From Anaerolineales bacterium (GTDB lineage Bacteria > Chloroflexota > Anaerolineae > Anaerolineales > DRMV01): DNA of 64,000 bases. Shown here piece by piece: positions 1,885 through 64,000 of this stretch. The stretch is taken from NCBI GenBank assembly GCA_026996855.1, contig JALWJZ010000016.1:567-64566 (forward strand). Reading direction: 5' to 3'. The notes below the pieces were generated by a model. The model worked only from the letters and a program-made list of their open reading frames with translations, was not told the origin of the DNA and searched no databases. Within the stretch, counting starts at the first letter, position 1, and each line of letters begins with the position of its first letter. The position numbers were made by a program, and so were the translations under genes.

Positions 1885-1922
1885 ACACGAGGATGCCTCT
1901 ACCCGACGCGTTTCTTGGAGCC

Positions 1923-1960
1923 AAAACGGGGATGGGGCCGAGGATGGCCCACCATCCCCG
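1923..1960 (-). terminator. hairpin plus U-run between tRNA-Trp and tRNA-Met
   Basis: 9-bp stem cggggatgg (1927-1935) / ccatccccg (1952-1960) with an inner ggcc/ggcc. On the minus strand it is followed by tttt (plus-strand aaaa 1923-1926). Confidence 0.5.
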
Positions 1961-1965
1961 TACAG

Positions 1966-2037
1966 AGCGGGCGACGGGATTCGAACCCGCGCATGGCGGC
2001 TTGGAAGGCCGCTGCCTTACCACTTGGCTACGCCCGC
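1966..2037 (-). tRNA. tRNA-Trp (anticodon CCA)
   Basis: Reverse complement gcgggcgtagccaagtggtaaggcagcggccttCCAagccgccatgcgcgggttcgaatcccgtcgcccgct folds as a cloverleaf. CCA end is not encoded. Confidence 0.85.
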
Positions 2038-13520: not shown

Positions 13521-13549
13521 AGCCGGAAAAGTAGCGGCTTTCATGGCCG

Positions 13550-29437: not shown

Positions 29438-29535
29438 AGTGGTCAGTGAACAGGAGTGAGGGGTGAGCAGTCAGCAGTGGGCAGTCAGCGAACTGCCGAC
29501 CGCAGACCGCGGACTGCCGGCTGCTGATTGCCGAC
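29438..29535. repeat. heptamer tandem array (14 units) in the ilvC-leuA spacer
   Basis: agtggtc agtgaac .. agcagtc agcagtg ggcagtc agcgaac tgccgac cgcagac cgcggac tgccggc tgctgat tgccgac. Internal hairpin 29475-29485 / 29494-29504. Confidence 0.9.
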
Positions 29536-30576: not shown

Positions 30577-30680
30577 GTGGGGATGTGGAATGAATGGGGA
30601 TATGCGAATGAGCGGATATGCGAATGGGCGGATGAGCGAATATGCGAATATGCGGATATGCGAATGGGCGGATGGGTGGA
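30577..30680. repeat. octamer tandem array (about 13 units, T[AG][TG]GCG[AG]A) upstream of ilvC
   Basis: tatgcgaa tgagcgga tatgcgaa tgggcgga tgagcgaa tatgcgaa tatgcgga tatgcgaa tgggcgga tgggtgga. Confidence 0.9.
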
Positions 30681-35598: not shown

Positions 35599-35661
35599 AG
35601 TGGACAGTGGACAGTGGTCAGTGGTCGGCTAACGGCTATCGGCTATCGGCTATCGGCTAAC
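35599..35661. repeat. heptamer tandem array (9 units) in the ilvB-ilvN spacer
   Basis: agtggac agtggac agtggtc agtggtc ggctaac ggctatc ggctatc ggctatc ggctaac. Contains the ilvB stop (35650-35652). Confidence 0.9.
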
Positions 35662-37373: not shown

Positions 37374-37450
37374 TCGTTGGTGGTCGTTGGTCGGTGGTCG
37401 TCAGTCCACAGTTAACCATCGACTATCGACCGTCGACCATCGACCATCAA
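37374..37450. repeat. heptamer array (11 units) forming an imperfect palindrome across the ilvD stop
   Basis: tcgttgg tggtcgt tggtcgg tggtcgt cagtcca cagttaa ccatcga ctatcga ccgtcga ccatcga. Arms 37385-37405 / 37418-37438. Confidence 0.9.
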
Positions 37451-51544: not shown

Positions 51545-52954
51545 TCACGATGCCGGGAAAAGTTCCTCCACCGCGCGCTTCGCCTGGGCAATCACATCCG
51601 GGATGCCTACTCCCTGGTAGGCGTTGCCCACCAAGTGCAAGCCGGGCCATTGAGAAGCACGCTGGAAGATGGCTGCCACTCGCTCCCCATGGCCCAGGGT
51701 GTACTGGGGCAGGGCCGGCCGCCATCGAAACACCCATGCTCGCTCTGGTTCCCCGGTGATGCCCATGGTCTCCCGCAATTCCTGGCGGGTCAGGGCCAGG
51801 AGGTCTTCCTCCGGCCAGGAGGCCACCTCGTCCGCGCCGGCCCGGCCGAAGAAGCATCGCAGCAATACTTTCCCTGCTGGCGCTCGGTGAGGAAACTTGC
51901 TGGAGGTCCACGAACAGGCCAGCAAAGGCCTGCCTTCCACCCGGGGAACCACGAAGCCCGAGCCCTCCAGGGAATGGGGGACCTGGCTGCGGTCGTAAGC
52001 CACGGAGACGATGACCGAAGCCGCGTAGGGAATTTCGGCCAACAGGTGGGCCAGGTCGGGGTCGAAGTCCTCCACCAGGGGTGCGGCCGCGTGGGCCGGT
52101 GTGGCCACCACCACGTGCTGGGCCTCCAGCGCGCCGTCGTCCAGGTATACCCGCCAGCGTCCCTGGTCCAGGGGTTCCAGGCGGGTGACCTTCATGCCCA
52201 GGTGCAGGTCCGCGAGGCCCTGCAGCCGTGCGACCAGCGCTTCCACCATGCGCCCCAGGCCGGTGCGCAGGGTGACGAAGGGGGTATAACGTGGACGAAA
52301 GCCGTTGGGATGGCGCTTTCTCTGACGCGTTCGATGCAGCAAGCCTCGCAACAGGCTGCCATATTGGCGTTCCAGTTCCAGCAGTTGGGGGTACGTGGTC
52401 CGCAGGCTGAGTTGTCGGGCATCGCCGGCGTAAATTCCCGCGAATAAAGGCTCGACCAAGCGCTCGAAGACCTCCCGGCCCAGGTGTCGGGTGACGAATT
52501 CGGCCACGGAAACGTCCTGGCCATCGGGCGTCCGATGGGTCTGCACCAGATTCCAGGCGGCTCGCAGCTTCCCCCGCCAGGAGAGCAGGAAGGTGCGAAA
52601 CAGGGGTCCCAGCCGCGCGGGGATCATCAGGGTCAGACCTTCGGGAAAGGGGTGCAGTCTGCCTCGAAAGAAAATGAAAGCCCGCCGACCGGGCGCGGTG
52701 CCCATGATTTCGTCTTCCAAACCCAGGTCCTGCCACAGGGCCAGACCAGCGGGCTTGAAGGAGAGGATGCTGTCGGGCCCGCCTTCCACGATGAAGCCCC
52801 CTTCCCGCACCGTGCGAATGACGCCGCCCCAGCGGTTCGAGGCTTCCAGCACGTGCAAATGCAAGGGGCGGCCCTGGCTCCGGGCCTTTTCCAGGAGAAA
52901 ATAGGCGGCACTCAGCCCACCGATGCCGCCGCCGATAATCGCGACCGTGGTCAT
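51545..52954 (-). CDS. hemY: coproporphyrinogen/protoporphyrinogen oxidase (HemY/CgoX)
   Basis: VAIIGGGIGGLSAAY..GGVIRT..GGPDSIL..GVGIPDVI. ATGA overlap with the PIN gene stop. Confidence 0.9.
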   Translation of the reverse strand: MTTVAIIGGGIGGLSAAYFLLEKARSQGRPLHLHVLEASNRWGGVIRTVREGGFIVEGGPDSILSFKPAGLALWQDLGLEDEIMGTAPGRRAFIFFRGRLHPFPEGLTLMIPARLGPLFRTFLLSWRGKLRAAWNLVQTHRTPDGQDVSVAEFVTRHLGREVFERLVEPLFAGIYAGDARQLSLRTTYPQLLELERQYGSLLRGLLHRTRQRKRHPNGFRPRYTPFVTLRTGLGRMVEALVARLQGLADLHLGMKVTRLEPLDQGRWRVYLDDGALEAQHVVVATPAHAAAPLVEDFDPDLAHLLAEIPYAASVIVSVAYDRSQVPHSLEGSGFVVPRVEGRPLLACSWTSSKFPHRAPAGKVLLRCFFGRAGADEVASWPEEDLLALTRQELRETMGITGEPERAWVFRWRPALPQYTLGHGERVAAIFQRASQWPGLHLVGNAYQGVGIPDVIAQAKRAVEELFPAS

Positions 52955-53412
52955 GATGCGCCTTCCTCACCCAGAAGGTGGACATGGGGGAAATGGGGCC
53001 GCACCAAGCGGGCCAGCCGACGGTCTGCCGTCCAGAAAGGGGCCTGAAGACGCCGGGCCAGAGCCAGGTAATGGGCGTCGTATGTCGCGGGCAATCGCCA
53101 CTGGTGGGCTAGACGCAGGGCCTCCTGGTGGAGTTCCGGGTACGTCACCAGGTCGATGTCCAGACGCAACGCCGTTTCCAAGACCTGAAGGGCGCGCTCC
53201 AGGGAGAACAAATCTGCCCTCACATATCGGTAAACAGCATTGGAAATCTCGAAGAACATCAACGGCGGAGCCACCAGCCTTCGGCCTTCCTTTTGCCACC
53301 TGACCCAAAGACGGTCGGCGACTGGGCCTTCTTTTGAGTCAACCAACATCCGGACAACAAAACTGGCATCAAGGCAGATGGTCGAAGCCGAGGGCTTCCA
53401 TGATCTGAGCAT
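52951..53412 (-). CDS. PIN-domain toxin (VapC-like)
   Basis: Acidic residues in CLDASFVV, FFEISNA, TYDAHYLALA and FWTADRRL. Overlaps the antitoxin 3' end. Confidence 0.75.
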   Translation of the reverse strand: MLRSWKPSASTICLDASFVVRMLVDSKEGPVADRLWVRWQKEGRRLVAPPLMFFEISNAVYRYVRADLFSLERALQVLETALRLDIDLVTYPELHQEALRLAHQWRLPATYDAHYLALARRLQAPFWTADRRLARLVRPHFPHVHLLGEEGAS

Positions 53413-53698
53413 CGCGTTCCTCCCGCATTTGCCGAATGATTTCTTCAGGTGGAGGAAGTTGTCGGTCCCCCAGTTCTTTGCGTATTTGCGCACGCAAGGC
53501 CAGAATCCGCTCCAGGGTTTCCTCCCAGGCGGGTCGGGCTTCTCCCCCTTGCAAACGGCGATAGGCTTCATAGGACAGCATCACCACATAGGGCTGGCCG
53601 CTTCGGGCCACGATGATGACGTCCCCCTGTTCCGCGGCGCGGCGCATCCATTCGCCCAGCCGAATTCGGGCCTCGGTTGCACTGATAACCCGTTCCAT
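53369..53698 (-). CDS. Phd/YefM family antitoxin
   Basis: ISATEARIRLGEWMRRAAEQGDVIIVARSGQPYVVMLSYEAY. Confidence 0.8.
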   Translation of the reverse strand: MERVISATEARIRLGEWMRRAAEQGDVIIVARSGQPYVVMLSYEAYRRLQGGEARPAWEETLERILALRAQIRKELGDRQLPPPEEIIRQMREERDAQIMEALGFDHLP

Positions 53699-53765: not shown

Positions 53766-54854
53766 TCATTCCAGTGCGCGGGCAGCCGTGCGCACCATTT
53801 CGCCCAATGCGGTGATAAAGGCTGGGTCGTCGTTCAAAGACTCGGTGCGGCGCACCTGGACGCCCAAAGTGCGGGCCCGTTGTTGCAATTCGATGTCAAT
53901 GTCGTACAGGATTTCCACATGGTCACACACGAATCCAATGGGCACGACCAGGACCTCCCGCACACCCTGCCGGGCCAGGTCTTCGACCAGGTCGCCCACG
54001 TCGGGCCCCAGCCAGGGCACGGCCGAGGCGCCTGCGCTCTGGTAGGCCACATGCCACGCGTCCAGCCCCAGGTGCTCGGCCACCCGGCGCGCGCTTTCCC
54101 GAACCTCCTTGTCATAAGGGTCGCCCTGCTCCACCACCTTTTGAGGCAGGCTGTGCGCGGTGAAGACCACCACAGGCTTACTTCCCTCCCAGGCAGATAG
54201 GGCCTCTTCCACTTTGTGAGCCACAGCCTGGATGAAGCCTGGATAGGTGGACCAACGGGTGATGAAGACGCTGGTCAGCGGTCGGCGGTGGGCCGTGGGC
54301 AGTGGGCGGTCGGTAGTCGGCGGTGGGTAGTCAACAGAAGGCAAAGAGGGGGCATCGCCCTGTGTCCACACTTTTACTTCGCATCCGACCTCAGATTGCT
54401 GACTGCTCGCTGCTGATTGCTCCCAGCCTTCTGCTTGCGTCAAAGGCCGATACCCCTGGGCTTCCAGGGCTTTTTCCAGCGCCTGCCGGTAAGCGCCGAT
54501 GCTCATACGGGAATAATGGGGGGCCATGGGCAGGGCCACAATCCGGCGAAAGCCCTGGTTCAGGATGTCCGGAAGCACTTCGTGGATGTAAGGGTGCCAG
54601 TGGCGCATGCCCACGAAGGTTTTGAAGTGCGGCCCCAGATGTTGGTGCAGCCAGGCCTCCAGCGCCCGGGCCTGGGCCTGGGTGTGCTCCAGCAGGGGGG
54701 ATTTCCCGCCGATGAGGCGGTACCGTTCCCGCACTTCTTCCACCAACTCTTGGGGTGTGGGACGACCGTGGCGCACGTCCAGTAGATAAGGTTTGACATC
54801 GTCCAGGGAAAGGGGACCCCCGTAGGCGAGCAAGAAGACGGCGGTGGGTTCCAT
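53766..54854 (-). CDS. hemH: ferrochelatase (coproporphyrin ferrochelatase type) carrying a ~55-codon repeat-derived insertion
   Basis: VFLLAYGGP..RYRLIGGKSPL..AHSLP..VPIGFVCDHVEILYDID. 362 aa, against the ~310 aa I recall as typical. Confidence 0.9.
   Translation of the reverse strand: MEPTAVFLLAYGGPLSLDDVKPYLLDVRHGRPTPQELVEEVRERYRLIGGKSPLLEHTQAQARALEAWLHQHLGPHFKTFVGMRHWHPYIHEVLPDILNQGFRRIVALPMAPHYSRMSIGAYRQALEKALEAQGYRPLTQAEGWEQSAASSQQSEVGCEVKVWTQGDAPSLPSVDYPPPTTDRPLPTAHRRPLTSVFITRWSTYPGFIQAVAHKVEEALSAWEGSKPVVVFTAHSLPQKVVEQGDPYDKEVRESARRVAEHLGLDAWHVAYQSAGASAVPWLGPDVGDLVEDLARQGVREVLVVPIGFVCDHVEILYDIDIELQQRARTLGVQVRRTESLNDDPAFITALGEMVRTAARALE
54272..54422. repeat. arm-core-arm heptamer element inside hemH
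   Basis: Left arm, 9 units (tggtcag cggtcgg cggtggg ccgtggg cagtggg cggtcgg tagtcgg cggtggg tagtcaa). Then a ~50-nt unique core. Right arm cagattg ctgactg ctcgctg ctgattg. Confidence 0.9.
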
Positions 54855-54873
54855 CGTAACCTCCGTGAATAGG

Positions 54874-54908
54874 GGATTGGTGGTCAGCCGTCAGCGGACA
54901 GCGGACTG
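54874..54908. repeat. heptamer array (5 units) across the hemE stop and hemE-hemH spacer
   Basis: ggattgg tggtcag ccgtcag cggacag cggactg. Confidence 0.8.
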
Positions 54909-56005
54909 CTTCGCTCATGCACATATTCCACGACAAAGGCCACCTGGTCCGGGTCGGTTTCGGGAAGCACACCGTGGCCCAGGTTGAAGATGTGGCCTGC
55001 CTGGCCTCGGGCTTCTGCAAGCACCGCATCCGCCTGGCGGGCCAGTACCTCCCGTGGGGCCAGCAGGGCCACCGGATCCAGATTCCCCTGGATGGCGTGG
55101 TGGCCTCCAACCGCCTCCCAGGCCGCGCCCAGGGGTACCCGCCAGTCCACGCCGATGACCTCCGCATCCAGGTCATGGAAAAGGGGTAGCAGGCCTGCGG
55201 TGCCGGTGGAAAAGTAAATTCGAGGGACGCCCGTCACTTGCAATCCCCGCAGCAGGGCCTGGACGTGGGGTTTCACATAACGGGCATAGTCCCCAGGACT
55301 CAGGGCACCGGCCCAACTGTCGAAGATTTGCACCGCCTGCGCGCCGGCGTCGATCTGGGCCTTGAGGTAATCCAGCGTGACGCGGACCAGCCGCTTCATG
55401 AGGGCGTCCCAGGCCTGGGGATGGTGGTACATCCAGCGTTTGGTCTCGACGTAATGGCGGGAACTCCCGCCCTCGATGGCATAAGAAGCCACGGTGAAGG
55501 GCGCGCCGGCAAAGCCGATAAGGGGCGTTTGGGGGGCTTCAAGCCGTACCCGGCGCACCGTCTCGAAAACGAAGCCCAGGGCTTCGTGCACGTCCACCAG
55601 GGGGAGGGTTTCCACCCGGTCCGGCGTCAGGCGGGGTTCCAATACCGGGCCGCGCCCTTTCTCAAAACGCAACCTCAGCCCCAGCGCTTCCAGTGGAAGC
55701 AGGATGTCCGCGAAGAGGATGAGGGCATCCACGCCCAGACGCAGGGGAAGCAGCGTCACCTGGGCGGCCAGGTCGGGCTCGCGCATGAGTTCCAGCAGGC
55801 CGTAGCGCTCCCGCAGCGCCCGGTATTCGGGCATGTAACGCCCGGCCTGCCGCATGAACCACACCGGCGTGTAGGGTGTGGGCTGCCGATAGCACGCGGC
55901 GAGGAAGGGGGGAAGGCGGTCGGCGGACAGCGGACGGCGGACGGCGGTCGGCTGTCGGCTGTCAGCGGACGGCGGTCGGCGGTCGGCCGTTGGCGGTTTC
56001 AGCAT
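54884..56005 (-). CDS. hemE: uroporphyrinogen decarboxylase with a repeat-encoded N-terminal extension
   Basis: TPVWFMRQAGRYMPEY..SWAGALSP. The only SD-preceded start (GAGGAGG, ATG at 56005) lies upstream of 30 array-encoded codons. Confidence 0.9.
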   Translation of the reverse strand: MLKPPTADRRPPSADSRQPTAVRRPLSADRLPPFLAACYRQPTPYTPVWFMRQAGRYMPEYRALRERYGLLELMREPDLAAQVTLLPLRLGVDALILFADILLPLEALGLRLRFEKGRGPVLEPRLTPDRVETLPLVDVHEALGFVFETVRRVRLEAPQTPLIGFAGAPFTVASYAIEGGSSRHYVETKRWMYHHPQAWDALMKRLVRVTLDYLKAQIDAGAQAVQIFDSWAGALSPGDYARYVKPHVQALLRGLQVTGVPRIYFSTGTAGLLPLFHDLDAEVIGVDWRVPLGAAWEAVGGHHAIQGNLDPVALLAPREVLARQADAVLAEARGQAGHIFNLGHGVLPETDPDQVAFVVEYVHERSSPLSADG

Positions 56006-56112
56006 TCGTGTTCCTCCTCATGCATTCGCTCACTGCTGATGGCTGACTTGCTGACTGCTGATTGCTCACTGCCGTCTGCTCACCGCTGACCGCTCACTGC
56101 TGACCGCTGACT
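55912..56112. repeat. 13-unit G-rich array, 26-nt core with the hemE SD and ATG, then 12-unit C/T-rich array
   Basis: gtcggcg gacagcg gacggcg .. (55912-56002), and ctcactg ctgatgg ctgactt gctgact gctgatt gctcact .. (56029-56112). Confidence 0.9.
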
Positions 56113-57410
56113 GCCCCAAACGCTTCCCGCGCCGCCTCCAGCGTGCGTTCCAGGTGCTCCTCCTCGTGGGCCAGGGACATGAACGCGGATTCATACTGGG
56201 AGGGCGGGTAATAGACCCCACGGGCGGCCATCTCCCAGAACCAGCGGGCGAAACGCTTCGTGTCGGCCTGGCTCACCTCTTCCCATGTGGTGGGCGCGCG
56301 GTCCAGGAAGAACACGGTGAACATGGTGCCCACGTGCTGCACGGTGACCGGGACGCCCGCCTCTTCCGCCGCCTGCGCCAGGCCCTGGGCCAGCCGTTGG
56401 GTGCGGGCTTCCAGCGTCTCCCATACCCCCGGCTCCCGCAGGGCATCCAACGTGGCGATGCCCGCAGCCATGGCCAGGGGGTTGCCCGAAAGGGTCCCGG
56501 CCTGGTACATGGGTCCTGCCGGGGCCACGTAGCGCATGATGTCTTTGGGGCCGCCGTACGCGCCCACAGGCAGCCCGCCGCCAATGACCTTGCCCAAGGT
56601 GGTGATGTCGGGCCGGACGCCATAGCGCGCCTGCGCGCCGCCCAGGGCCACCCGGAACCCCGTCATGACCTCGTCGAAGATGAGGAGCGCGCCGTAGCGG
56701 TCGCACAGCGCGCGCAGGCCCTCCAGGAAGCCCGGTTGGGGCGGCACCACGCCCATGTTTCCGGCCACCGGTTCCACGATGACCCCCGCGATGTCCTGGC
56801 CATGGGCTTCGAAAAGGGCTTCTACCGCGGCCAGGTCGTTGTAGGGTGCGGTCAGGGTGTCCTGGGTGGTGCCGGGGGTCACGCCGGGGGAATCGGGCAG
56901 GCCCAGGGTGGCCACGCCGGAGCCAGCCCGAACCAGGAGCGCGTCCACGTGGCCGTGGTAGCACCCGACGAACTTGACGACTTTCGTCCGGCCGGTGACC
57001 GCGCGGGCCAGGCGGATGGCGCTCATGGTGGCTTCGGTGCCCGAATTCACGAAGCGCACCATTTCGATGGAAGGCACCATCTCGATGACCCGCTCCGCGA
57101 GGTCGATTTCCAGGCGGGTGGGCGCGCCGTAAGACGTACCCCGTTCCGCAGCCTGCTTCACCGCTTCCACCACTTTGGGGTGGGCATGCCCCAGGATGAG
57201 GGGTCCCCAGGAGAGCACGTAATCGATGTAGCGGTTACCGTCGGCATCCCACAGGTAGGGGCCCCGGGCCTTTTCGATGAACAGGGGGACGCCGCCCACG
57301 GCGCGGAAGGCGCGGGCCGGGGAATTTACCCCACCCGGGATGACTTCCTGGGCCTTCTCGAACAGGCGTCGGGACGTCTCCACGCGTAAAGGTCGGGTCA
57401 GGGCTTCCAT
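56094..57410 (-). CDS. hemL: glutamate-1-semialdehyde 2,1-aminomutase
   Basis: [33 protein letters not shown] at 57410 follows GAAGGAGGAG. Confidence 0.95.
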
Positions 57411-57424
57411 GGTGCTCCTCCTTC

Positions 57425-57466
57425 GGCTGTCCGCCCACTGCTGACTGCTCACCGCTCACTGCCCAA
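57425..57466. repeat. heptamer array (6 units, C-rich type) across the PIN stop and hemL upstream spacer
   Basis: ggctgtc cgcccac tgctgac tgctcac cgctcac tgcccaa. Confidence 0.8.
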
Positions 57467-57940
57467 CACTGTCTCCAGGTGAAAGTCCTCGGCGAAGGGG
57501 TTGACGAAATGCACGCCTTCGATGGTGCTGCCGATAGCGAAGTCCTCGGTGAAGACCAGGGGGATTTGGTGCATCCGGGCCACGGCCCAGATTTGGGCGT
57601 CCCAGTAGGAAAAGCGGTACCGCCGCACCCCGCGTATAGCCTCCAGCACCACGGTTTCGGTAACGGGCAGCACCCGGAACGTGCGGGCCAGGTCCTCCAC
57701 CAAAGCCTGGGCCTGTTCGGGCGAGAGAGCAGGCCGGAGTTTCCGGGTGACCGTGTTGAAAAATTCGCCCAGAATCTGCGTGCTGATGATGCCCAGGCCA
57801 TGCTGTACCAGGCCTTCCAACACTTGCAAGGCACGGGCCTGCTTCTCTGGCTCGGAGCGGTCGTAGGCATACACCAGGACGTTGGTATCCAGGAAGACAT
57901 TGTTCCACTTATTTGCGGGGCCAGCGAAGACGTTCTTCAT
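57449..57940 (-). CDS. PIN-domain toxin (VapC-like)
   Basis: [37 protein letters not shown]. Confidence 0.75.
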
Positions 57941-58187
57941 AGAGCTCCTCCCTGGTCCAGGTTCGTCCTCCGGGCACGGGACCTTGGCTCATCCACCATT
58001 CGGCGAAGGCTTTGAGCCGTTGCCAGGCTTCCTGGCGTTCCCGTTCCTCCAGCGCCTGGCGGAGATACAAATCCAGCGCCCGGCGGATGAGTTCGGCTTC
58101 GGAGACCTGAAGCAGCCGGGAAAGGGTCTTCAACCGCTGCTCCTGGTGGGGTTCTAGATAGATTTGCTTGCGCACCATTCGGGCCAT
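57909..58187 (-). CDS. ribbon-helix-helix (CopG/VapB-like) antitoxin
   Basis: KQIYLEPHQEQRLKTLSRLLQVSEAELIRRALDLYL. SD is GGAGGTG. Overlaps the PIN start. Confidence 0.7.
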   Translation of the reverse strand: MARMVRKQIYLEPHQEQRLKTLSRLLQVSEAELIRRALDLYLRQALEERERQEAWQRLKAFAEWWMSQGPVPGGRTWTREELYEERLRWPRK

Positions 58188-58201
58188 AGCACACCTCCGT
58201 A

Positions 58202-58222
58202 TACATCACATGTACATCACAT
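58202..58222. promoter_or_regulatory. 10-nt direct repeat tacatcacat-g-tacatcacat upstream of the RHH antitoxin (candidate operator)
   Basis: Two identical 10-mers with an 11-nt period, 15-35 nt upstream of ATG 58187, touching the hemA stop codon. Confidence 0.3.
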
Positions 58223-59520
58223 CATACCAGGCCCGAAGGGCCGCTGGCCCCGCGTTTTCCGTCTTCTTCCAACTCGAACAGGCGGGCCAGGGCTTGGGCG
58301 TAGGGCGCTTCGTGCCCCTCCTGGGCCAGGGACCGCAGGTTGCGGGCCGGGATTTGCAGCCATTTCTCCAGCAGGATGCGGGTGACCTCCTCCACCACCT
58401 CCTGGGTCTCGCCGTTGACGTGCAGGCGCTTCAGGGTGCGCCGGACCACGTCCTGGCGCAGGGCCTCGGCGCGACGGTGCAGGGCCGTGAGCAAGGGCGC
58501 CACCCGGCGGGCCTGCCACCACCGAAGGAATTCCGCCATCTCCTCCCGCAAGATGGTCTCGGCCTGAGGCACCGCGGCCCGACGTTGGGCCAGGCCGGCA
58601 TCCACCACGCCCCGCAGGTCGTCGATGTCGAACAGGCGCACCTGGGGCAGGTCGGCCAGCCGGGGGTCCACGTTGCGGGGCACGCCGATATCCACCATCA
58701 GCAACGGCCGCTCCCGCGCGGCCAGCACGGGCGCGGCCGCCTGGTAGGTGAGCACGGGCTGGGGCGCGGCCACCGCGGTAACGACCACATCAGCCCACAG
58801 GAGGGCCTCATGCCAGGCCTGCCAGGGGAAGGTACGGCCCTCCACTTCCCGGGCCAGGTCCTCGGCTCGCTGGGGGGTGCGGTTCATGACCGCCAGGTGC
58901 CGAAAGCCCAGGCTGTGCAGATGCCGGGCCACGGTGCGGGCCATGGCCCCCGCGCCCACCACCAGGGCCCTGTGCCTGGGCGAGGCGTGTTCCCGCACCA
59001 GGTGGGCCGCGGCCGAGCTGACCGAAGCCGGCGCACGGCCAATGGCCGTTTCCCGCCGCACCCGCTTGCCCGCGGTCACGGCCTGCTGGAACAGGCGGTG
59101 CAGGATGGGACCCACCACGCCGGTCCGTCGCGCGGCCTGCCAGGCTTCCCGCACCTGGCCCAGAATCTCGGGTTCGCCGAGAATCATGGAATCCAGGCCC
59201 GCGGCCACCCGGAAGAGGTGCCAGACCGCGTCCCGGTCCTCCAGGAGGTAGAGGTGTTCCTGTAAGGCCTGCAGGGAAAGCCCGGCCAAACGGTGCACCA
59301 GGGCGTTGTACCCCGCGTCCGCGGCCTGGGCCGACTCGGCCACCAGGTAAACCTCGAAGCGGTTGCAGGTGGAAAGCACCACGGCTTCGTTGGGATGGGG
59401 GCCTTCGCCCTGGAGCACGGCCTGCACCGCGGGCCAGAGGCGACTTTCCTCCACGGCCAGCCGTTCCCGCAACGCCACCGGCGCGGTGCGATGGTTCATG
59501 CCGTAAAGGACCACCTGCAT
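58222..59520 (-). CDS. hemA: glutamyl-tRNA reductase
   Basis: GMNHRTAPVALRE..VLSTCNRFEVY..VVGAGAMA. Confidence 0.92.
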   Translation of the reverse strand: MQVVLYGMNHRTAPVALRERLAVEESRLWPAVQAVLQGEGPHPNEAVVLSTCNRFEVYLVAESAQAADAGYNALVHRLAGLSLQALQEHLYLLEDRDAVWHLFRVAAGLDSMILGEPEILGQVREAWQAARRTGVVGPILHRLFQQAVTAGKRVRRETAIGRAPASVSSAAAHLVREHASPRHRALVVGAGAMARTVARHLHSLGFRHLAVMNRTPQRAEDLAREVEGRTFPWQAWHEALLWADVVVTAVAAPQPVLTYQAAAPVLAARERPLLMVDIGVPRNVDPRLADLPQVRLFDIDDLRGVVDAGLAQRRAAVPQAETILREEMAEFLRWWQARRVAPLLTALHRRAEALRQDVVRRTLKRLHVNGETQEVVEEVTRILLEKWLQIPARNLRSLAQEGHEAPYAQALARLFELEEDGKRGASGPSGLV

Positions 59521-59530
59521 GGGAACCTCC

Positions 59531-59607
59531 CAGCGGTCGGCAGTGAGCAGTGGGCAGTCAGCGGTGGGAAGTGGGCTGTGGGCGGTCGGCGGTTGGTGGA
59601 TGGTAGT
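59531..59607. repeat. 11-unit G-rich heptamer array (left arm flanking the four-helix-bundle gene)
   Basis: cagcggt cggcagt gagcagt gggcagt cagcggt gggaagt gggctgt gggcggt cggcggt tggtgga tggtagt. Confidence 0.9.
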
Positions 59608-59639
59608 AAAATTTGTGCAGATGGCATGCGAGGTGGGGT

Positions 59640-60008
59640 ATGGGGCGCATGCGGTCGCATCGTGATTTGGAAGTGTGGAAGCGTTCGGCCCAATTCGCGC
59701 AGCGGATTTACCAGGTGACCGCCCACTTCCCCGACCAGGAGAAATACAACCTGACTGCGCAACTGCGGCGGGCCAGCACGTCGATTCCCGCCAACATCGC
59801 CAAAGGCCATGGACGTCGCACCGAGGGCGCGTTTGCTTTGCACCTGGATATTGCCTTGGGTTCGCTGGCGGAAATCGACACGTTCCTGTACCTGGCGCAC
59901 CATTTGGGCTATCTCTCCCAAGATGTTTACGAAGAATTGCTGAACGAACTCACCATTATCCGTCGCATGCTGTACCGCCTCTACAACCGCGTCCAATCTA
60001 ACCGCTGA
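59640..60008 (+). CDS. four-helix-bundle protein (TIGR02436 / 23S rRNA intervening-sequence protein family, Avd-like)
   Basis: RDLEVWKRSAQFAQRIYQVTAHFPDQEKYNLTAQLRRASTSIPANIAKGHGR..ALGSLAEIDTFLYLA. The start could be 59649. Confidence 0.85.
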   Translation: MGRMRSHRDLEVWKRSAQFAQRIYQVTAHFPDQEKYNLTAQLRRASTSIPANIAKGHGRRTEGAFALHLDIALGSLAEIDTFLYLAHHLGYLSQDVYEELLNELTIIRRMLYRLYNRVQSNR

Positions 60009-61143
60009 CGGCCGACGGCCGACCGCCGACCGCCGTCTGCCGTCCGCTGACTGCTGCCGGCTGATACACACACAACGGGTCCCATTCCAGCGGGTCGCCG
60101 AAGACCGCGTAAGCCCGGGCGCGAGAGCCGCCGCAGACCTTGCGATACTCGCAGTAGCCGCACTTTCCCTTGAGTTGGTCGGGGTCCCGCAGGGCGCGGA
60201 AGAGGGGGTGGTTGCGGTAGACCTCCACAGGGTGATGGGTACGCACGTTGCCCGTCACGATGGGCAGGAACCCCGCGGGATAGATTTCCCCAATGTGGGA
60301 AACGAACATGATGCCCGACCCATCCCGGATGCCGAAGCCAAAACGGAGGCGTTTGGGCATCTCTCGATTGCCTTCGGCTTTGGCCCGCTGCAAGGCCACC
60401 CGACGGTAGTGATGGGCTTCCGTAGTCTTGATGGCAAAGGGCGCTTCCTTGGCAAAGTCGTACAGCCAGTTGAGCAGGTCCTCGGCCTGTTCTGGGGTGA
60501 TGTCGCCCAGCACCTTCCCCCGGCCCACCGGGACTAAGAAGAACACGCTCCAGCGCTCCACGCCCAGGTCCACCAAAAGGCGGCCGATGTTGGGGATGTC
60601 GTCATAAGTCTCCGCGCAAACTAAGGTGTTGATTTGCAAAGGGAGACCCGCCTCCTTGGCCCAGCGAATGGCCGCAACGGTTTGTTCGAAACTCCCTGGC
60701 ACCATGCGGATGGCGTCGTGGCGCTCGGGCGTGGAGCCGTCCAAACTCACCGACATCATCCACACGCCCACGTCTTTGAAGCGGTGGACCACGTCCCGGG
60801 TCAGCGCATAGGTGCCGCTGGGGGTGATGGCAGTGAGGAAGCCCCGTTCTACCGAAGCCTGAAGCAAATCGAAGAGGTCGGGCCGCTTGAGGGGGTCACC
60901 GCCGGTGAACACGATGTGGGGCTTGGGTTCCCCGAATTCCAGGAATCTGTCCAGCAGGGCCAGACCCTCTTCGGTGGTGAGTTCCAGGGGATGGCGATGG
61001 GGCTGGGCCTCGGCCCGGCAGTGGCGGCAGACCAGGTCGCAGGCCCGGGTGACTTCCCAGTAGATGAGCATGGGTGCCTTGTGAATGTCGGGCCGCTGGA
61101 AGGCCGGGGGCCGTTTGCCGTTGGTCGGGGAAGGACGTGCCAT
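59998..61143 (-). CDS. radical SAM/SPASM protein of the AhbD (heme b synthase)-like type
   Basis: WEVTRACDLVCRHCR radical SAM cluster, and C-terminal CGYCEYRKVCGGSRARA. The last ~19 aa (AAVSGRQTAVGGRPSAVSG) are array-encoded. Confidence 0.75.
   Translation of the reverse strand: MARPSPTNGKRPPAFQRPDIHKAPMLIYWEVTRACDLVCRHCRAEAQPHRHPLELTTEEGLALLDRFLEFGEPKPHIVFTGGDPLKRPDLFDLLQASVERGFLTAITPSGTYALTRDVVHRFKDVGVWMMSVSLDGSTPERHDAIRMVPGSFEQTVAAIRWAKEAGLPLQINTLVCAETYDDIPNIGRLLVDLGVERWSVFFLVPVGRGKVLGDITPEQAEDLLNWLYDFAKEAPFAIKTTEAHHYRRVALQRAKAEGNREMPKRLRFGFGIRDGSGIMFVSHIGEIYPAGFLPIVTGNVRTHHPVEVYRNHPLFRALRDPDQLKGKCGYCEYRKVCGGSRARAYAVFGDPLEWDPLCVYQPAAVSGRQTAVGGRPSAVSG
60001..60063. repeat. 9-unit C-rich heptamer array (right arm flanking the four-helix-bundle gene)
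   Basis: accgctg acggccg acggccg accgccg accgccg tctgccg tccgctg actgctg ccggctg. Confidence 0.9.
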
Positions 61144-61161
61144 GGAAGACCTCCTTTTGAA

Positions 61162-61273
61162 GGGCCGTTGGCCGGCAGCCGTTGGCCGTTGGTGGAAAGC
61201 AGTCGGCGGTCAGCGGACGGCGGTCGGCCGTCGGCCGTCGGCTGACTGCTCACCGCTCACTGCTGACCGCCGT
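61162..61273. repeat. 16-unit heptamer array forming a near-palindrome in the hemQ / radical SAM spacer
   Basis: gggccgt tggccgg cagccgt .. cggcggt cggccgt cggccgt | cggctga ctgctca ccgctca ctgctga ccgccgt. Confidence 0.9.
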
Positions 61274-61909
61274 AATAATCGGTGTATCCCGCAAGGTGAA
61301 CTTGCGGGCCTCGGTGCTGCGCAGGTCCTGGACCAAATCCGAGAACTGGACCACGTCGTCGGTTTCGTAGACCACGACGAACTCCTGGTCCTGCACGCCA
61401 AAGGAGTACAGCAGGAGTTGCAGAATCTCGGGGTACTGCCGGCCCACCCGGATGTGTTCGTTCATCATGCCCTGGCGGGCATCCCGGCTCATCAGGTACC
61501 ACTCGGCCGTCTTGACGAAGGGGTACACGATGAGGTAGCGCTTGCGGACTTCCCCGAAGGGGTCGATTTCCTGGGGCGAACGGCCTTTCGCATAGATGGA
61601 GGGTTTGGTCACGCCCCACAGGGTGAGGGGCACTTCGGCATAGGGGTGCAGCGGTTCAAAGGCCCGGGCGAAGCCGGTGAAGAACCGGGCCGGGGTTTCG
61701 GGGTCTTCGTAGGGAATCGCGCACCAGAGGAGCACGTCGGCCTCGTGGCGGCTGGGGAAGACCTGGTACAGGTAGCGCCGCGGGGCCGCCTCGGCCAGGG
61801 CTTCCACCACCTGTTGCAGAAGGCCCTCGCGGGCCGCAGGCTCCAACTGCCAGTACGCGGGGCGGAACTTGAGCAGGGTGAAGTGGTTCAGCGAGCGTCG
61901 TTCAGCCAT
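61250..61909 (-). CDS. hemQ: coproheme decarboxylase (HemQ/ChdC, chlorite dismutase family)
   Basis: [38 protein letters not shown] is AGGAGG. Confidence 0.88.
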
Positions 61910-62877
61910 CGGGCCACCTCCTTGGCGTGATACGTGAGGATGAGGTCCGCGCCGGCGCGTTTGATGGCGGTGAGGATTTCCAGGGCCACCGCGCGCTCGT
62001 CCAGCCAGCCCCGCTGGGCCGCGGCCTTGACCATGGCGTACTCGCCGCTCACGTTGTACGCGGCCACCGGCACGGGGAAGGCCTCCCGCACGGCCCGGAT
62101 GACGTCCAGATACGCCAGCGCGGGCTTGACCATGACGATGTCCGCGCCTTCCGCGATGTCCAGGGCCACTTCCCGCAGGGCTTCCCGGGCGTTGGCCGGG
62201 TTCATCTGGTACCCCCGGCGGTCGCCGAACTGGGGCGGACTCTGGGCCGCGTCCCGGAAGGGGCCGTAGAAATGACTGGCGTACTTGGCTGCGTAGGCCA
62301 TGATGGGGATGTGGGCGTACCCGGCCTCATCCAGCGCGCGGCGGATGGCCGCAACCTGACCGTCCATCATCCCGCTGGGCGCGACCATGTCCGCGCCGGC
62401 CTGGGCATGGGTCACGGCCACCTTCCCGTAAATCTCCAGGGTCTCGTCGTTGACCACCTCGCCTTCCCGCACGATGCCGCAATGGCCGTGGTCGGTGTAT
62501 TCGCACATGCACACATCGGTGATGACCACCAGGTCGGGCACGGCCTGCTTGATGGCCCGGATGGCCTTGGGGATGATGCCCTCCGGGTCGAAGTTCTCCG
62601 TACCGATGGGGTCCTTGTGGGCTGGGATGCCGAAGAGGATGACCGCGGGGATGCCCAGGGCCGCGGCCTCCTCGGCTTCCCGCACGGCTTCGTCCACCGA
62701 AAGTTGGTAGACGCCAGGCATGGACGGAACCTCCCGGCGCACCCTTTTCCCATGAACTACGAAGAGGGGATAGATGAGGTCGTCCACCGTGAGCACGGTC
62801 TCCTGCATCATGCGCCGCAAGGCCGGGGTCCGGCGCAGACGCCGCAAGCGGGTTTGGGGGAAGGAGCCAAGGTGCAT
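61888..62877 (-). CDS. hemB: porphobilinogen synthase
   Basis: [33 protein letters not shown]. Confidence 0.95.
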
Positions 62878-62891
62878 GGGATACCTCCGGG

Positions 62892-63059
62892 GAAGTGGAC
62901 AGTGGACAGTGGTCAGTGGTCAGTGAACAGTGAACAGTGGTCAGTGGCGGTGGCGGTCGGCAGTCGGCTATCTGCTGTCTGCTATCTGCTGTCGGCTATC
63001 TGCTGTCTGCTATCTGCTATCTGCTCACTGCTGACGGCTGTCCGCTGACCGCTCACTGC
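62892..63059. repeat. 24-unit heptamer array in one uninterrupted register (hemD 3' end / hemB upstream)
   Basis: gaagtgg acagtgg acagtgg tcagtgg .. agtcggc | tatctgc tgtctgc tatctgc tgtcggc .. tgaccgc tcactgc. Confidence 0.95.
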
Positions 63060-64000
63060 TTCTACCAGTCCTTCCATGGTGTACTGCTGGGCCACGGCGT
63101 GGACGGGCAGGCCGGCCTCGCGCGCGGCCCGGGCGGTGATGGGGCCGATGCACACCACCCGCACGCCGGGCGGCAGGGGCCGTCCCCCCAGGGCCTGGAC
63201 GAAGCCCTGCACCGTGGACGGGCTGGTGAAGGTCACCACGTCCACCTCGTCCAGCGGGGGCGGCGTATCGGGCGGGGCCACTAAGGTGCGGTAGGCCACC
63301 ACCTCGTCCACCTGGGCGCCCCGGCTCTGGAGGATTTCCCGCAGCGTGGGCCGGGCCCGGTCGGCCCGGGCCAGCAGGATGCGCAACCCCCGCACGTCGC
63401 CCAGGGCATCGGCCAGGGCTTCGGCCACGTAAGCCGGGGGGATGAGGTCCGGCTCCCGGCCCTGGGCCTGTAAGGCCTTCGCGGTGGCGGGGCCGATGAC
63501 GGCGATGCGGACGTCCGCGGGCACTCGCAGGCCCAGGGCCTGAAGTCGGTTCCACACGAAGCGCACGCCGTTGGCCGAGGTCAAGACCAGCCAGTCGTAC
63601 CCGCCCCGGCTCAGGCGGTGCAGGGCCTGGTCCAGGGGTCCCCAGTTTTCGGGCGGCGCGATGCGGATGGTGGGGTAGAGCACAGGCTCGTACCCTGCCT
63701 CCCGCAGGCGGGCCAGCCATGCCTCGGCCTGCTCCGGGGGCCGGGTGATGAGGACGCGGAGCGGACGGCGGTCGGCAGTCGGCAGTCGGCTGTCCGCTGT
63801 CGGCTGTCCGCTGACCGCTGCCTGCTGACCGCTGCCTGCTGACTGCGCACTGCGCACTGCGGACTGCCCACTCCGCACCTGCATCGCCAATTCCCGTCCC
63901 AACCCCTCCGCTTCCTCCATCGGGGCCTGGCCCCGGACGCGATAGGGCGTGCCGTCGGCCGCGACGTACAGGGCGGTGAGGGTGAGGGTTCCTCCCTGCA
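62982..64000 (-). CDS. hemD: uroporphyrinogen-III synthase, continuous with a HemC (porphobilinogen deaminase) C-terminus through a repeat-encoded linker; 5' partial
   Basis: LRVLITRPPEQAE..WLVLTSANGV..VTFTSPSTV is HemD. The frame stays open upstream of M at 63920 to nt 64000 (..TLTALYVAADGTPYRVRGQAPMEEAEGLGRELA, HemC-like). Confidence 0.8.
   Translation of the reverse strand, partial: QGGTLTLTALYVAADGTPYRVRGQAPMEEAEGLGRELAMQVRSGQSAVRSAQSAGSGQQAAVSGQPTADSRLPTADRRPLRVLITRPPEQAEAWLARLREAGYEPVLYPTIRIAPPENWGPLDQALHRLSRGGYDWLVLTSANGVRFVWNRLQALGLRVPADVRIAVIGPATAKALQAQGREPDLIPPAYVAEALADALGDVRGLRILLARADRARPTLREILQSRGAQVDEVVAYRTLVAPPDTPPPLDEVDVVTFTSPSTVQGFVQALGGRPLPPGVRVVCIGPITARAAREAGLPVHAVAQQYTMEGLVEAVSGQRTAVSSEQIADSRQQIADSR
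63756..63881. repeat. 18-unit heptamer array translated as the hemC-hemD linker
   Basis: gcggagc ggacggc ggtcggc agtcggc agtcggc tgtccgc tgtcggc tgtccgc tgaccgc tgcctgc tgaccgc tgcctgc tgactgc gcactgc gcactgc ggactgc. Confidence 0.9.

What the first reader, a model, noticed from the sequence alone, without database searches (positions are those of the whole stretch)
61204..61272. Array hairpins are G:U-compatible only in the plus-sense RNA, antisense to the host operons
Pairing 61204-61237 with 61239-61272 gives 34 positions: 26 Watson-Crick, 4 G:T and 4 mismatches. In the hemH element, 54299-54323 against 54389-54413 gives 17 Watson-Crick, 6 G:T or T:G and 2 mismatches. At unit level the 55.9/56.0 kb arms (GTCGGCG vs GCTGACT) and the 62.9/63.0 kb arms (GTGGACA vs TGTCTGC) show the same pattern. 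All these G:T oppositions are wobble pairs in a plus-strand transcript but become C:A mismatches in the minus-strand mRNA of the hem genes. The four-helix-bundle ORF is also plus-sense. This implies either selection on a plus-sense (antisense) RNA structure or a strand-biased mutation process acting on the arms.
Basis: seen in the sequence. Interest (0 to 1): 0.65.

Follow-up and report, generated by a model that had tools for sequence, protein, structure and literature searches.

The report
One-sided wobble in heptamer-repeat hairpins
Runs of 7-base repeats between the heme genes fold into hairpins whose imperfect positions are G:T on one DNA strand. This is real, but it looks like a by-product of how the repeats grow and mutate, not evidence for a functional antisense RNA.

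Summary
The counts are exact: 26 Watson-Crick, 4 G:T and 4 mismatches at 61204-61272, and 17/6/2 in the hemH element. Plus-sense RNA folds 9-41 kcal/mol better than the mRNA strand at five arrays. Five other arrays are balanced, and the mRNA strand also folds far better than shuffles.

The hairpins are tandem arrays of a self-complementary heptamer, GCNGWCN. They sit at junctions of minus-strand heme and branched-chain amino acid operons. G:T positions recur at one or two unit phases per array. They are therefore a few unit variants copied many times, not dozens of independent events.

In 240 loci from other bacteria, wobble direction is unrelated to gene orientation: 22 sense against 23 antisense hairpins. 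Six sense-strand cases were checked, and the flanking genes submitted to Pfam were all confirmed. Array composition instead follows local strand skew. The window's plus strand is G+T-rich at synonymous sites in genes of both orientations.

In this lineage the bias is stronger than point-mutation skew predicts: 59:13 here and 36:2 in two relatives. A constraint on the mRNA strand remains a live rival. A functional antisense RNA is unsupported.

Side findings: four-helix-bundle genes sit inside such hairpins in 12 of 12 loci, and arrays are translated in frame within HemH, HemE and HemC-HemD.

The parts
61204..61237 (.). Left arm of the hemQ/radical-SAM junction hairpin. Units are GCGGTCG, GCGGTCA and GCGGACG, which are G-rich at the free unit positions on the plus strand.
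61239..61272 (.). Right arm of the same hairpin (GCTGACT, GCTCACC, GCTCACT, GCTGACC). It has T where the complement of the left arm would have C. It overlaps the last 22 nt of the hemQ ORF, whose stop codon lies in the array.
61163..61192 (.). Adjacent short GGCCGTT array, next to the radical-SAM Shine-Dalgarno sequence and start codon (61143).
54273..54435 (.). Hairpin array inside the hemH ORF (arms 54273-54331 and 54389-54435). It is read in frame as a roughly 62-aa insert in ferrochelatase (residues about 137-198). G:T 13 against A:C 5.
   Evidence: The insert is also present in relative L250.
55911..56114 (.). hemL/hemE junction hairpin (arms 55911-55996 and 56028-56114). G:T 19 against A:C 0. 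The loop holds GAGGAGG and the ATG at 56005. The downstream arm encodes a 33-aa N-terminal extension of HemE.
62894..63053 (.). hemD/hemB junction hairpin. AGTGGAC, AGTGGTC and AGTGAAC units face GCTATCT and GCTGTCT units. G:T 17 against A:C 6, with 16 of 17 G:T at two adjacent unit phases.
63760..63880 (.). Array between the HemC and HemD parts of one continuous ORF, translated as a linker. The wobble count is nearly balanced (6:2 or 4:4, depending on the alignment).
59531..60063 (+). Inverted heptamer arrays (59531-59596 and 59998-60063) flanking a plus-strand four-helix-bundle ORF (59640-60008, PF05635/TIGR02436). The ORF is antisense to the hem operon. G:T 4 against A:C 3.
57424..57466 (.). 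One-armed array between the PIN stop codon and the hemL Shine-Dalgarno sequence and start (ATG 57410).
54879..54911 (.). Short array at the hemE/hemH junction. It is nearly identical in relative L250.
29455..29515 (.). Array between ilvC and leuA (both on the minus strand). Balanced wobble (2:2, or 0:3 with a narrower alignment).
35599..35659 (.). Array between ilvB and ilvN (minus strand), AGTGGAC/GGCTATC units. Symmetric count 5:5, but the plus RNA is 12 kcal/mol more stable.
37381..37448 (.). Array between ilvD and ilvB (minus strand), TGGTCGT/ACCATCG units. Balanced 3:3, and both strands fold at about -41 kcal/mol.
53766..63998 (-). Host heme-biosynthesis cluster on the minus strand: hemC-hemD fusion, hemB, hemQ, a TIGR04053 radical SAM gene, hemA, an RHH-PIN pair, hemL, hemE and hemH.
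   Evidence: Synteny in relatives.

Best explanation
The hairpins are DNA-level tandem arrays of a heptamer whose skeleton, GC-N-GWC-N-(GC), is its own reverse complement. Any two in-register arrays therefore pair at 4 of 7 positions (follows from the sequence). Arrays with purines at the free positions lie next to arrays with pyrimidines there, and together they make long imperfect palindromes.

The arrays grow and shrink by gain and loss of whole units (shown by comparing relatives). One transition in one unit is thus copied many times (shown by the phase of the G:T sites).

The direction of the wobble reflects a strand-asymmetric substitution or expansion pressure on the DNA (inferred). The plus strand here is the G+T-rich strand at synonymous sites whatever the gene orientation. 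Established knowledge takes this as the mark of the strand that is single-stranded more often during replication and so suffers more C-to-T change. C-to-T changes in the C-rich right arm give G(left):T(right), which is what is seen.

G:U compatibility of a hypothetical plus-sense transcript is the arithmetic mirror of this. It needs no antisense RNA.
For: - Unit structure and 7-nt period.
- G:T sites concentrate at one or two unit phases: hemL/hemE 15 of 19, hemD/hemB 16 of 17. They are mostly G in the left arm and T in the right arm: 18 of 19 at hemL/hemE and 4 of 4 at 61204-61272.
- Orthologous junctions in relatives L249 and L250 carry arrays with different unit numbers. L244, L245 and L246 differ only in copy number.
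- Plus-strand G/C and T/A at 4-fold sites are 1.17 and 2.75 in plus genes, and 1.30 and 0.80 in minus genes. The orientation-independent component is about 1.23 and 1.48. The same strand polarity is seen in L249 and L250 for genes of both orientations.
- Window arrays have a keto skew of 0.129, against 0.127-0.154 at third codon positions.
- In other genomes (481 arrays, 221 loci), array keto skew follows the rest-of-locus skew (t = 4.3) and the orientation-averaged third-position skew (t = 2.25). It does not follow gene orientation (t = -0.6 to -1.05).
- Hairpins with a strong bias in loci with clear skew: 12 concordant against 3 discordant.
- Extreme one-sided hairpins occur in both directions relative to genes: 56:4, 2:27, 0:23, 13:0.
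- One short array in L249, among oppositely oriented genes, keeps the DNA-strand polarity of the hem arrays.
Against: - Point-mutation skew predicts at most about 1.8:1. In minus-strand genes the T/C ratio is equal on the two strands (0.156 against 0.151). Yet the hem arrays show 59:13, and the relatives show 36:2.
- The 130-bp repeat at 13045-13635 shows C>T 8 against G>A 9 on the plus strand.
- All seven hem junction arrays with any bias point the same way. Unit amplification alone does not explain that.
- On contig L256 (probably the same or a close organism), arrays in a plus-strand operon and in the minus-strand groES-groEL operon both favour the antisense strand (-68.4 against -50.4, and -59.3 against -37.7). 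The polarity therefore flips with gene orientation. The third-position skew flips there too.
- Array skew does not follow the third-position skew of the immediately flanking genes in other genomes (t = 0.7).
- Replication direction cannot be established from 64 kb.
Confidence: 0.4

Rival explanations
1. Constraint on the sense mRNA. The palindromic arrays arise at the DNA level, but very stable hairpins, or U-containing units that create stop codons, are harmful inside polycistronic and partly translated transcripts. Unit variants with transitions that break sense-strand pairs (G:C to A.C, A:U to A.C) are the ones tolerated and amplified. Each such change is necessarily a G:U wobble on the complementary strand. 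The antisense compatibility is then a by-product, and no antisense RNA is made.
For: - In this lineage the sense strand carries the A.C mismatches at every biased hem junction in three genomes: 59:13 and 36:2.
- The same holds in two oppositely oriented operons on L256.
- Several arrays are translated in frame: the HemE N-terminus, the HemH insert and the HemC-HemD linker. The sense downstream arms are CCGACC-type units, which are stop-free in all frames. The HemE extension differs between the window and L250 by exactly 6 units (14 aa), so the frame is kept.
- Arrays occur at 9 of 23 minus-strand junctions and 0 of 9 plus-strand junctions (p = 0.035).
- Weak trends in the same direction in other genomes: strongly biased hairpins 12 antisense against 7 sense, a free-energy difference of 10 kcal/mol or more in 14 against 8, and a mean sense-oriented array skew of -0.028.
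Against: - No significant orientation effect across 240 loci. Hairpins split 22 against 23, and 18 sense against 14 antisense when both flanks are co-directional.
- Six sense-G:U counterexamples were found, and the flanking genes submitted to Pfam were all confirmed.
- The sense hairpins remain very stable (-56 to -91 kcal/mol), so destabilisation is partial at best.
- The ilv/leu arrays in the same window are balanced.
- The short L249 array at 381-423 has the opposite polarity relative to its genes.
Confidence: 0.3
2. Founder effect only. All hem-operon arrays descend from one or a few ancestral hairpins whose arms happened to be GCRGWSA-type and GCCGACY-type. Copying between junctions and shared ancestry among the three relatives then propagate one accident, with no strand-linked cause.
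For: - The same small unit repertoire recurs at all hem junctions and in the relatives.
- G:T sites are phase-locked.
- One-sided hairpins in either direction are common elsewhere, and the counts are strongly overdispersed.
- At the level of arrays, the window gives only 4-5 biased arrays against 0.
Against: - It needs every copy to be inserted in the same orientation.
- It does not explain the cross-genome correlation with local skew.
- It does not explain the same polarity relative to genes in unrelated operons on L256.
Confidence: 0.15
3. Functional antisense RNA. Plus-strand transcripts across the arrays (including the four-helix-bundle mRNA) fold into G:U-containing stems that are maintained by selection, for example to regulate or process the hem transcripts.
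For: - The plus strand folds 9-41 kcal/mol better at five arrays.
- The four-helix-bundle ORF is plus-sense and must be transcribed from that strand.
- The asymmetry is conserved in two relatives.
Against: - No Rfam match and no promoter-like site.
- 10-20% transversion mismatches.
- Unit turnover between relatives instead of compensatory change.
- The arms flanking four-helix-bundle genes show no G:U bias in the gene's own sense: 23 against 27 over 12 elements, and 4:3 here.
- No orientation rule across genomes.
- It would need an antisense transcript at nearly every junction of the operon.
Confidence: 0.07

Closest known systems
Cyanobacterial STRR (short tandemly repeated repetitive) heptanucleotide sequences, and the heptanucleotide class of long simple sequence repeats (Mrazek et al. 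2007, as summarised in PMC4679880)
   Same: Both are tandem 7-nt units, mostly intergenic, present at many loci per genome and variable in copy number. Some form hairpins between genes of one operon. The same GCNGWCN pattern was found in cyanobacterial loci L032, L048 and L074. From memory, the STRR units TTGGTCA and CAACAGT are one base away from the GTGGTCA and GAACAGT units at 62.9 kb.
   Different: The units here are GC-rich with a self-complementary skeleton. They are arranged as back-to-back inverted arrays, occur far outside cyanobacteria (Acidobacteriota, Chloroflexota, Planctomycetota, Bacteroidota) and are read in frame inside genes. I found no paper describing a strand asymmetry of wobble positions in such arrays.
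TAACTGA direct repeats of Beggiatoaceae, cyanobacteria and Bacteroidetes (MacGregor 2015, PMC4679880)
   Same: Both are heptamer arrays placed just upstream of start codons. They are scattered over distant phyla and contain stop codons in all frames.
   Different: Those are almost always direct repeats (169 direct sets and one indirect), of one AT-rich unit, with 2-6 copies. Here the arrays are inverted pairs of many unit variants, with up to 13 units per arm.
Replication-associated strand compositional asymmetry (GC and AT skew; established knowledge, Lobry 1996)
   Same: G>C and T>A on one strand at synonymous sites, irrespective of gene orientation. In other genomes the arrays lean the same way as the local skew.
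   Different: The bias in the hem arrays (about 4.5:1 to 18:1) is far larger than the skew at 4-fold sites predicts (at most about 1.8:1). A switch at the origin or terminus could not be examined.
23S rRNA intervening sequences that carry a PF05635 ORF in a long stem-loop
   Same: A PF05635/TIGR02436 four-helix-bundle ORF lies in the loop of a long stem formed by inverted flanks.
   Different: The element lies between protein-coding genes of operons, not in rRNA. The stem is made of heptamer arrays. Excision by RNase III is untested.
REP/BIME intergenic palindromes of enterobacteria
   Same: Both are imperfect palindromes at junctions inside operons, repeated at many places in a genome.
   Different: There is no fixed 35-40-nt unit and no associated RAYT transposase was seen. 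The structure here is a tandem array of 7-mers with rapid copy-number change.

Membership tests
Structured cis-antisense or non-coding RNA | Transcribed from the strand on which it folds (promoter or mapped 5' end) | tested here: inconclusive
   No sigma-70-like sites on either strand in 53-64 kb, against 1.2 expected. The organism's promoter type is unknown and no RNA data were available.
Structured cis-antisense or non-coding RNA | Helices kept by compensatory changes among homologues | tested here: not met
   The stems carry 10-20% transversion mismatches. Orthologous arrays in L249 and L250 differ by whole units, so no homologous column-by-column alignment exists.
Structured cis-antisense or non-coding RNA | Constant orientation relative to the host genes across occurrences | tested here: not met
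   Hairpins split 22 sense, 23 antisense and 11 ties. By free energy they split 29 against 26. Counterexamples were checked with Pfam. In this lineage alone the orientation is constant.
Structured cis-antisense or non-coding RNA | Match to a described RNA family | tested here: not met
   Rfam 15 at gathering thresholds finds only two tRNAs, at 1812-2037.
Heptanucleotide tandem repeats (STRR-like / long simple sequence repeats) | Head-to-tail units of 7 nt | tested here: met
   TRF reports period 7 (and 14, 21, 28) at all sites.
Heptanucleotide tandem repeats (STRR-like / long simple sequence repeats) | Mostly intergenic and at many loci | tested here: met
   Eleven sites in the window. 419 of 481 arrays in other loci lie outside predicted genes.
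Heptanucleotide tandem repeats (STRR-like / long simple sequence repeats) | Copy number varies between close relatives | tested here: met
   Window against L249 against L250 at five junctions. L244, L245 and L246.
Cyanobacterial STRR in the strict sense | Units CCCCAGT, TTGGTCA or CAACAGT in heterocystous cyanobacteria (from memory) | tested here: not met
   The units here are GCNGWCN variants and AGTGGWC. The gene content (HemQ, TIGR04053 radical SAM) does not look cyanobacterial. The organism was not identified.
Replication strand asymmetry | The same strand is G- and T-rich at synonymous sites in genes of both orientations | tested here: met
   Not met on L256, where the skew flips with gene orientation.
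Replication strand asymmetry | Skew changes sign at the origin and terminus | not testable with these tools
   Only 64 kb of this genome was available. Cumulative GC skew rises monotonically across it.
23S rRNA IVS-type element | PF05635 ORF in the loop of a long stem | tested here: met
   48 Watson-Crick pairs between 59531-59596 and 59998-60063. The same architecture is seen in 11 other loci.
23S rRNA IVS-type element | Inserted in a 23S rRNA helix and excised by RNase III | tested here: not met
   The element lies between the radical SAM gene and hemA. Excision is not testable here.
REP/BIME | Conserved palindromic unit of about 35 nt recognised by a RAYT transposase | not tested
   No such unit appeared in the repeat search. 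No search for RAYT genes was made.

The most novel reading that the evidence does not exclude
Palindromic heptamer arrays, with or without a TIGR02436 four-helix-bundle gene in the loop, may be a widespread and so far undescribed kind of self-propagating element. It would resemble a 23S rRNA intervening sequence, but colonise operon junctions and even open reading frames in many phyla. On this reading, the fixed wobble polarity in this lineage records the mechanism. One possibility is expansion of a single-stranded DNA hairpin on one template strand. The other is purifying selection that lets only mRNA-weakened copies survive in essential operons.
Probability: 0.2. Interest if true: 0.65.

Novelty: new variant of a known kind. 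Interest (0 to 1): 0.35.

Why it matters
As stated, the finding would have implied a set of structured antisense RNAs over an essential operon. The evidence speaks against that, which saves a false lead.

What remains is still useful:
- It is a clear case in which wobble asymmetry in repeats must not be read as RNA selection. Tandem amplification multiplies single events, and any sense-strand-breaking transition leaves an antisense wobble.
- It provides a well-defined system: heme-operon junctions in three related genomes. There the polarity is much stronger than mutation skew predicts, so replication-linked repeat dynamics can be tested against mRNA-structure avoidance.
- The arrays show that essential enzymes (HemH, HemE, HemC-HemD) tolerate repeat-encoded peptide inserts.
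- They also show that four-helix-bundle genes of unknown function travel inside such hairpins.

Tried and rejected
- Gene-orientation rule across genomes. I tested it three ways: G:T against A:C counts, free-energy difference, and array G+T skew. I used two versions of my own gene finder. No effect was found. The first gene finder mis-called the ilvC/leuA region. Pfam showed this and it was fixed.
- Array skew against the third-position skew of the immediately flanking genes. There is no relation in other genomes (t = 0.7). A common local mutational cause at synonymous sites and arrays is therefore not general.
- Independent check of raw mutation asymmetry using the 130-bp repeat at 13045-13635. 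It gave C>T 8 against G>A 9, so no asymmetry.
- Search for arrays of this lineage in operons encoded on the G+T-rich strand, which is the decisive cell. There are none in the window. L251 and L253 had arrays only around the four-helix-bundle gene. L256 gave an opposite-orientation array, but its codon-position skew flips too, so the test stayed confounded.
- G:U bias tied to the orientation of the four-helix-bundle gene: none (23 against 27).
- L121 turned out to be identical to the window and added nothing.
- Literature searches for the four-helix-bundle family together with heptamer repeats found nothing.
- The organism was not identified. The source is an uncultured-metagenome contig of 66,845 nt.

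Full report
**What is at the coordinates.**
The stretch 61163-61272 lies between the stop codon of hemQ (ORF 61250-61909, minus strand) and the start of a TIGR04053 radical SAM gene (ATG at 61143, minus strand). It is a tandem array of 7-nt units. The hemH element gives 17, 6, 0 and 2.

The region 53.7-64 kb is a heme-biosynthesis cluster on the minus strand. It holds a hemC-hemD fusion, hemB, hemQ, the radical SAM gene, hemA, an RHH-PIN pair, hemL, hemE and hemH. Similar arrays sit at almost every junction. Three more arrays lie in a minus-strand ilvD-ilvB-ilvN ... ilvC-leuA cluster at 29-38 kb.

**Anatomy of the repeat.**
Nearly all units fit GCNGWCN. With the GC of the next unit this reads GC-N-GWC-N-GC, which is its own reverse complement. 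Two in-register arrays therefore pair at the four skeleton positions whatever the free positions are. In the hairpins, an arm with purines at the free positions is followed by an arm with pyrimidines there.

On the plus strand the left arms are GCGGTCG or GCGGACG. The right arms are GCTGACT, GCTCACT or GCTGACC, so T stands where a perfect complement would have C.

**Checking the strand claim by folding.**
Plus-sense RNA is more stable than the mRNA strand at five arrays, by 12 to 41 kcal/mol over whole arrays and 9 kcal/mol over the core hairpin at 61199-61275. The difference is within about 3 kcal/mol at 37.4 kb, 29.4 kb, upstream of hemD and PIN/hemL. For the 546-nt four-helix-bundle element it is 12 in 238 kcal/mol.

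Both strands of 61199-61275 fold far better than dinucleotide shuffles. Plus gives -55.0 (z = -6.4) and minus gives -46.4 (z = -4.8). The mRNA is therefore still strongly structured.

An alignment of each region against its own reverse complement, scored alike for G:T and A:C, gives 71 G:T, 28 A:C and 72 transversion mismatches in the window. The excess comes from the hem arrays (59:13). The ilv/leu arrays and the four-helix-bundle element are balanced.

**The oppositions are not independent events.**
G:T sites fall on one or two of the seven unit phases in each array:
- hemL/hemE: 15 of 19
- hemD/hemB: 16 of 17
- 61204-61272: 3 of 4

They are nearly always G in the left arm and T in the right arm. 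They are unit variants copied in tandem.

Two relatives that share more than 90% identical heme proteins (L249, L250) have arrays at the same junctions. Their unit numbers and unit mixtures differ, and some junctions have very short arrays or none. Three near-identical loci elsewhere (L244-L246) differ only in copy number. In hairpins from other genomes the G:T and A:C counts are about threefold overdispersed (chi-square 245 on 80 df). One-sided cases such as 56:4, 2:27, 0:23 and 13:0 are common.

**Is the polarity tied to transcription?**
In the window every array lies among minus-strand genes, so gene orientation and DNA strand cannot be separated. I therefore collected 240 loci carrying four consecutive GCNGWCN units from genomes and metagenomes. 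The free positions were left unspecified, so the sample is not biased for wobble type.

The arrays occur in Acidobacteriota, Chloroflexota, Planctomycetota, cyanobacteria, Bacteroidota and others, including loci of 37-43% G+C. Genes were called with my own codon-usage finder. Its strand calls matched Pfam for the hem and ilv genes and for 10 of 10 test cases.

Results:
- Of 56 hairpins with co-directional neighbours, 22 have more G:T on the sense strand, 23 on the antisense strand and 11 tie.
- With both flanks co-directional the split is 18 against 14.
- By free energy, the sense RNA is the more stable in 29 and the antisense in 26 (Wilcoxon p = 0.64).
- Among strongly biased hairpins there is a non-significant lean towards antisense: 12 against 7, and 14 against 8 for a difference of 10 kcal/mol or more.
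- Clear sense-strand cases are L087 6856-6953, L144 603-676, L222 3334-3445 and L217 7757-7850 (between two Pfam-confirmed genes), plus L003 2130-2219 and L072 4265-4341 (one flank confirmed).
- The G+T skew of 481 arrays is unrelated to gene orientation (t between -0.6 and -1.9, depending on the model).

**Is it tied to the DNA strand?**
At 4-fold degenerate sites the window's plus strand has G/C 1.17 and T/A 2.75 in plus-strand genes. In minus-strand genes the values are 1.30 and 0.80. The component independent of gene orientation is about 1.23 and 1.48. The same strand polarity holds in L249 and L250 for the hem genes and for the divergent upstream genes.

The window arrays have the same G+T excess (0.129) as third codon positions (0.127 and 0.154). 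In other genomes array skew follows the skew of the rest of the locus (t = 4.3; per-locus rho 0.24, p = 4e-4). It follows the orientation-averaged third-position skew more weakly (t = 2.25). Among strongly biased hairpins in loci with clear skew, 12 agree and 3 disagree.

By established knowledge, G>C with T>A marks the strand that is more often single-stranded in replication and accumulates C-to-T changes. This fits G in the left arm facing T in the C-rich right arm. Known transcription-associated deamination of the non-transcribed strand would give the opposite polarity here.

**What this does not explain.**
The skew at synonymous sites predicts a G:T to A:C ratio of at most about 1.8. Within minus-strand genes the T/C ratio is the same on both strands. 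The 130-bp repeat at 13045-13635 shows no asymmetry (C>T 8, G>A 9). Yet the hem arrays give 59:13, and the relatives give 36:2 in the same direction. All seven hem junctions with any bias agree.

Contig L256 carries a 61%-identical four-helix-bundle paralogue. A piece of it was also assembled from the run that yields the window sequence. On it, an array in a plus-strand operon and the array between groES and groEL on the minus strand both favour the antisense strand. The third-position skew flips there as well, so the case is confounded. One short array in L249, among oppositely oriented genes, keeps the DNA-strand polarity. Array skew in other genomes does not follow the third-position skew of the flanking genes themselves.

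**The third reading.**
Any transition that breaks a pair in the sense strand (G:C to A.C, or A:U to A.C) is by arithmetic a wobble pair on the other strand. Selection against very stable hairpins in the mRNA, or against U-containing units that create stop codons, would therefore produce exactly this pattern with no antisense RNA.

Some support exists:
- Several arrays are translated. HemH has a 62-aa in-frame insert, also present in L250. HemE starts at an ATG in the hairpin loop behind GAGGAGG. Its repeat-encoded extension differs from L250 by exactly six units, so the frame is kept. hemC and hemD form one ORF joined by a repeat-encoded linker in all three genomes.
- Arrays occur at 9 of 23 co-directional minus-strand junctions and at 0 of 9 plus-strand junctions in the window (p = 0.035).

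Against it stand the lack of a general orientation effect, the balanced ilv arrays and the large stability the sense hairpins retain.

**Antisense RNA.**
Nothing positive supports it beyond the asymmetry itself.
- No Rfam family matches.
- No promoter-like site is found (a weak test).
- Transversion mismatches are abundant.
- Relatives differ by unit turnover rather than compensatory change.
- The stems around four-helix-bundle genes must be transcribed with the gene, yet they show no G:U preference in the gene's sense. The count is 23 against 27 over 12 elements, and 4:3 in the window.

**Verdict.**
Its statistical weight is much smaller than the raw counts suggest.

- Most likely (0.4): a DNA-level by-product. 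Self-complementary heptamer arrays amplify a few unit variants, and their direction is set by a strand-asymmetric substitution or expansion pressure.
- Live rival (0.3): a constraint on the sense mRNA.
- Pure founder effect: 0.15.
- Functional antisense RNA: 0.07.

The decisive comparison needs arrays of this lineage in operons encoded on the G+T-rich strand. It could not be made with the sequence I could reach.

**Relation to known things.**
The arrays belong with heptanucleotide tandem repeats. Related classes are the cyanobacterial STRR, the heptanucleotide class of long simple sequence repeats, and the TAACTGA repeats. They differ in three ways: the self-complementary GC-rich unit, the back-to-back inverted arrangement, and in-frame translation.

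The element carrying the four-helix-bundle gene resembles 23S rRNA intervening sequences in architecture, but it sits in operons. I found no paper linking that protein family to heptamer arrays.

Noticed in passing
window 59531-60063; loci L004, L065, L087, L166, L187, L242, L244-L248: PF05635/TIGR02436 four-helix-bundle ORFs lie in the loop of inverted heptamer arrays in 12 of 12 loci examined (17-68 Watson-Crick pairs between the flanks). The loci come from several phyla, and the ORFs lie in either orientation relative to neighbouring genes, usually inside operons. At the orthologous radical-SAM/hemA junction, relative L249 has the array hairpin without the gene and L250 has no array.
   Followed up: partly
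window 54262-54445 (hemH), 55911-56005 (hemE), 63740-63900 (hemC-hemD): Arrays are read in frame. There is a 62-aa insert between the two halves of ferrochelatase, also present in L250. There is a 33-aa HemE N-terminal extension starting at an ATG in the hairpin loop, which is 14 aa (6 units) longer than in L250. There is a repeat-encoded linker in a HemC-HemD fusion in all three relatives.
   Followed up: partly
window, all co-directional gene junctions: Arrays occur at 9 of 23 junctions between minus-strand genes and at 0 of 9 between plus-strand genes (Fisher p = 0.035). All arrays are in biosynthetic operons (heme, branched-chain amino acids).
   Followed up: partly
L244 3369-3445, L245 1563-1677, L246 1235-1275: Three near-identical loci differ only in the number and variant of CAACTGA/CCACTGA units downstream of the four-helix-bundle gene. 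This is direct evidence of rapid unit gain and loss.
   Followed up: partly
window 57449-58187: An RHH antitoxin and PIN toxin pair sits between hemA and hemL. It is present in the window and L249 and absent in L250. A further PIN gene lies at 52951-53571. L250 has a PhdYeFM-PIN pair after hemH.
   Followed up: partly
window 13045-13635: A tandem repeat of 130 bp in 4.5 copies (92% matches) overlaps the 3' end of the 1707-aa ORF 13550-18673. Differences among copies are dominated by G>A (9) and C>T (8).
   Followed up: partly
window 30578-30680; L256 13992-14137: Period-8, 16 and 24 tandem repeats (ATATGCGA / TGCGAATG) lie near the ilvC 5' region. Similar 8-nt arrays (CGCCCATT, CCGCCTTA) lie in a convergent intergenic region of L256.
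   Followed up: no
loci L006, L014, L016, L077 and others: GC-rich GCNGWCN arrays occur in genomes of only 37-43% G+C. The unit is therefore not simply a reflection of base composition.
   Followed up: no
L256 16677-16897: A 120-bp repeat in 1.9 copies lies upstream of groEL on the contig that carries the four-helix-bundle paralogue.
   Followed up: no
window 1812-2037: Two tRNA genes on the minus strand are the only Rfam matches in the window.
   Followed up: no
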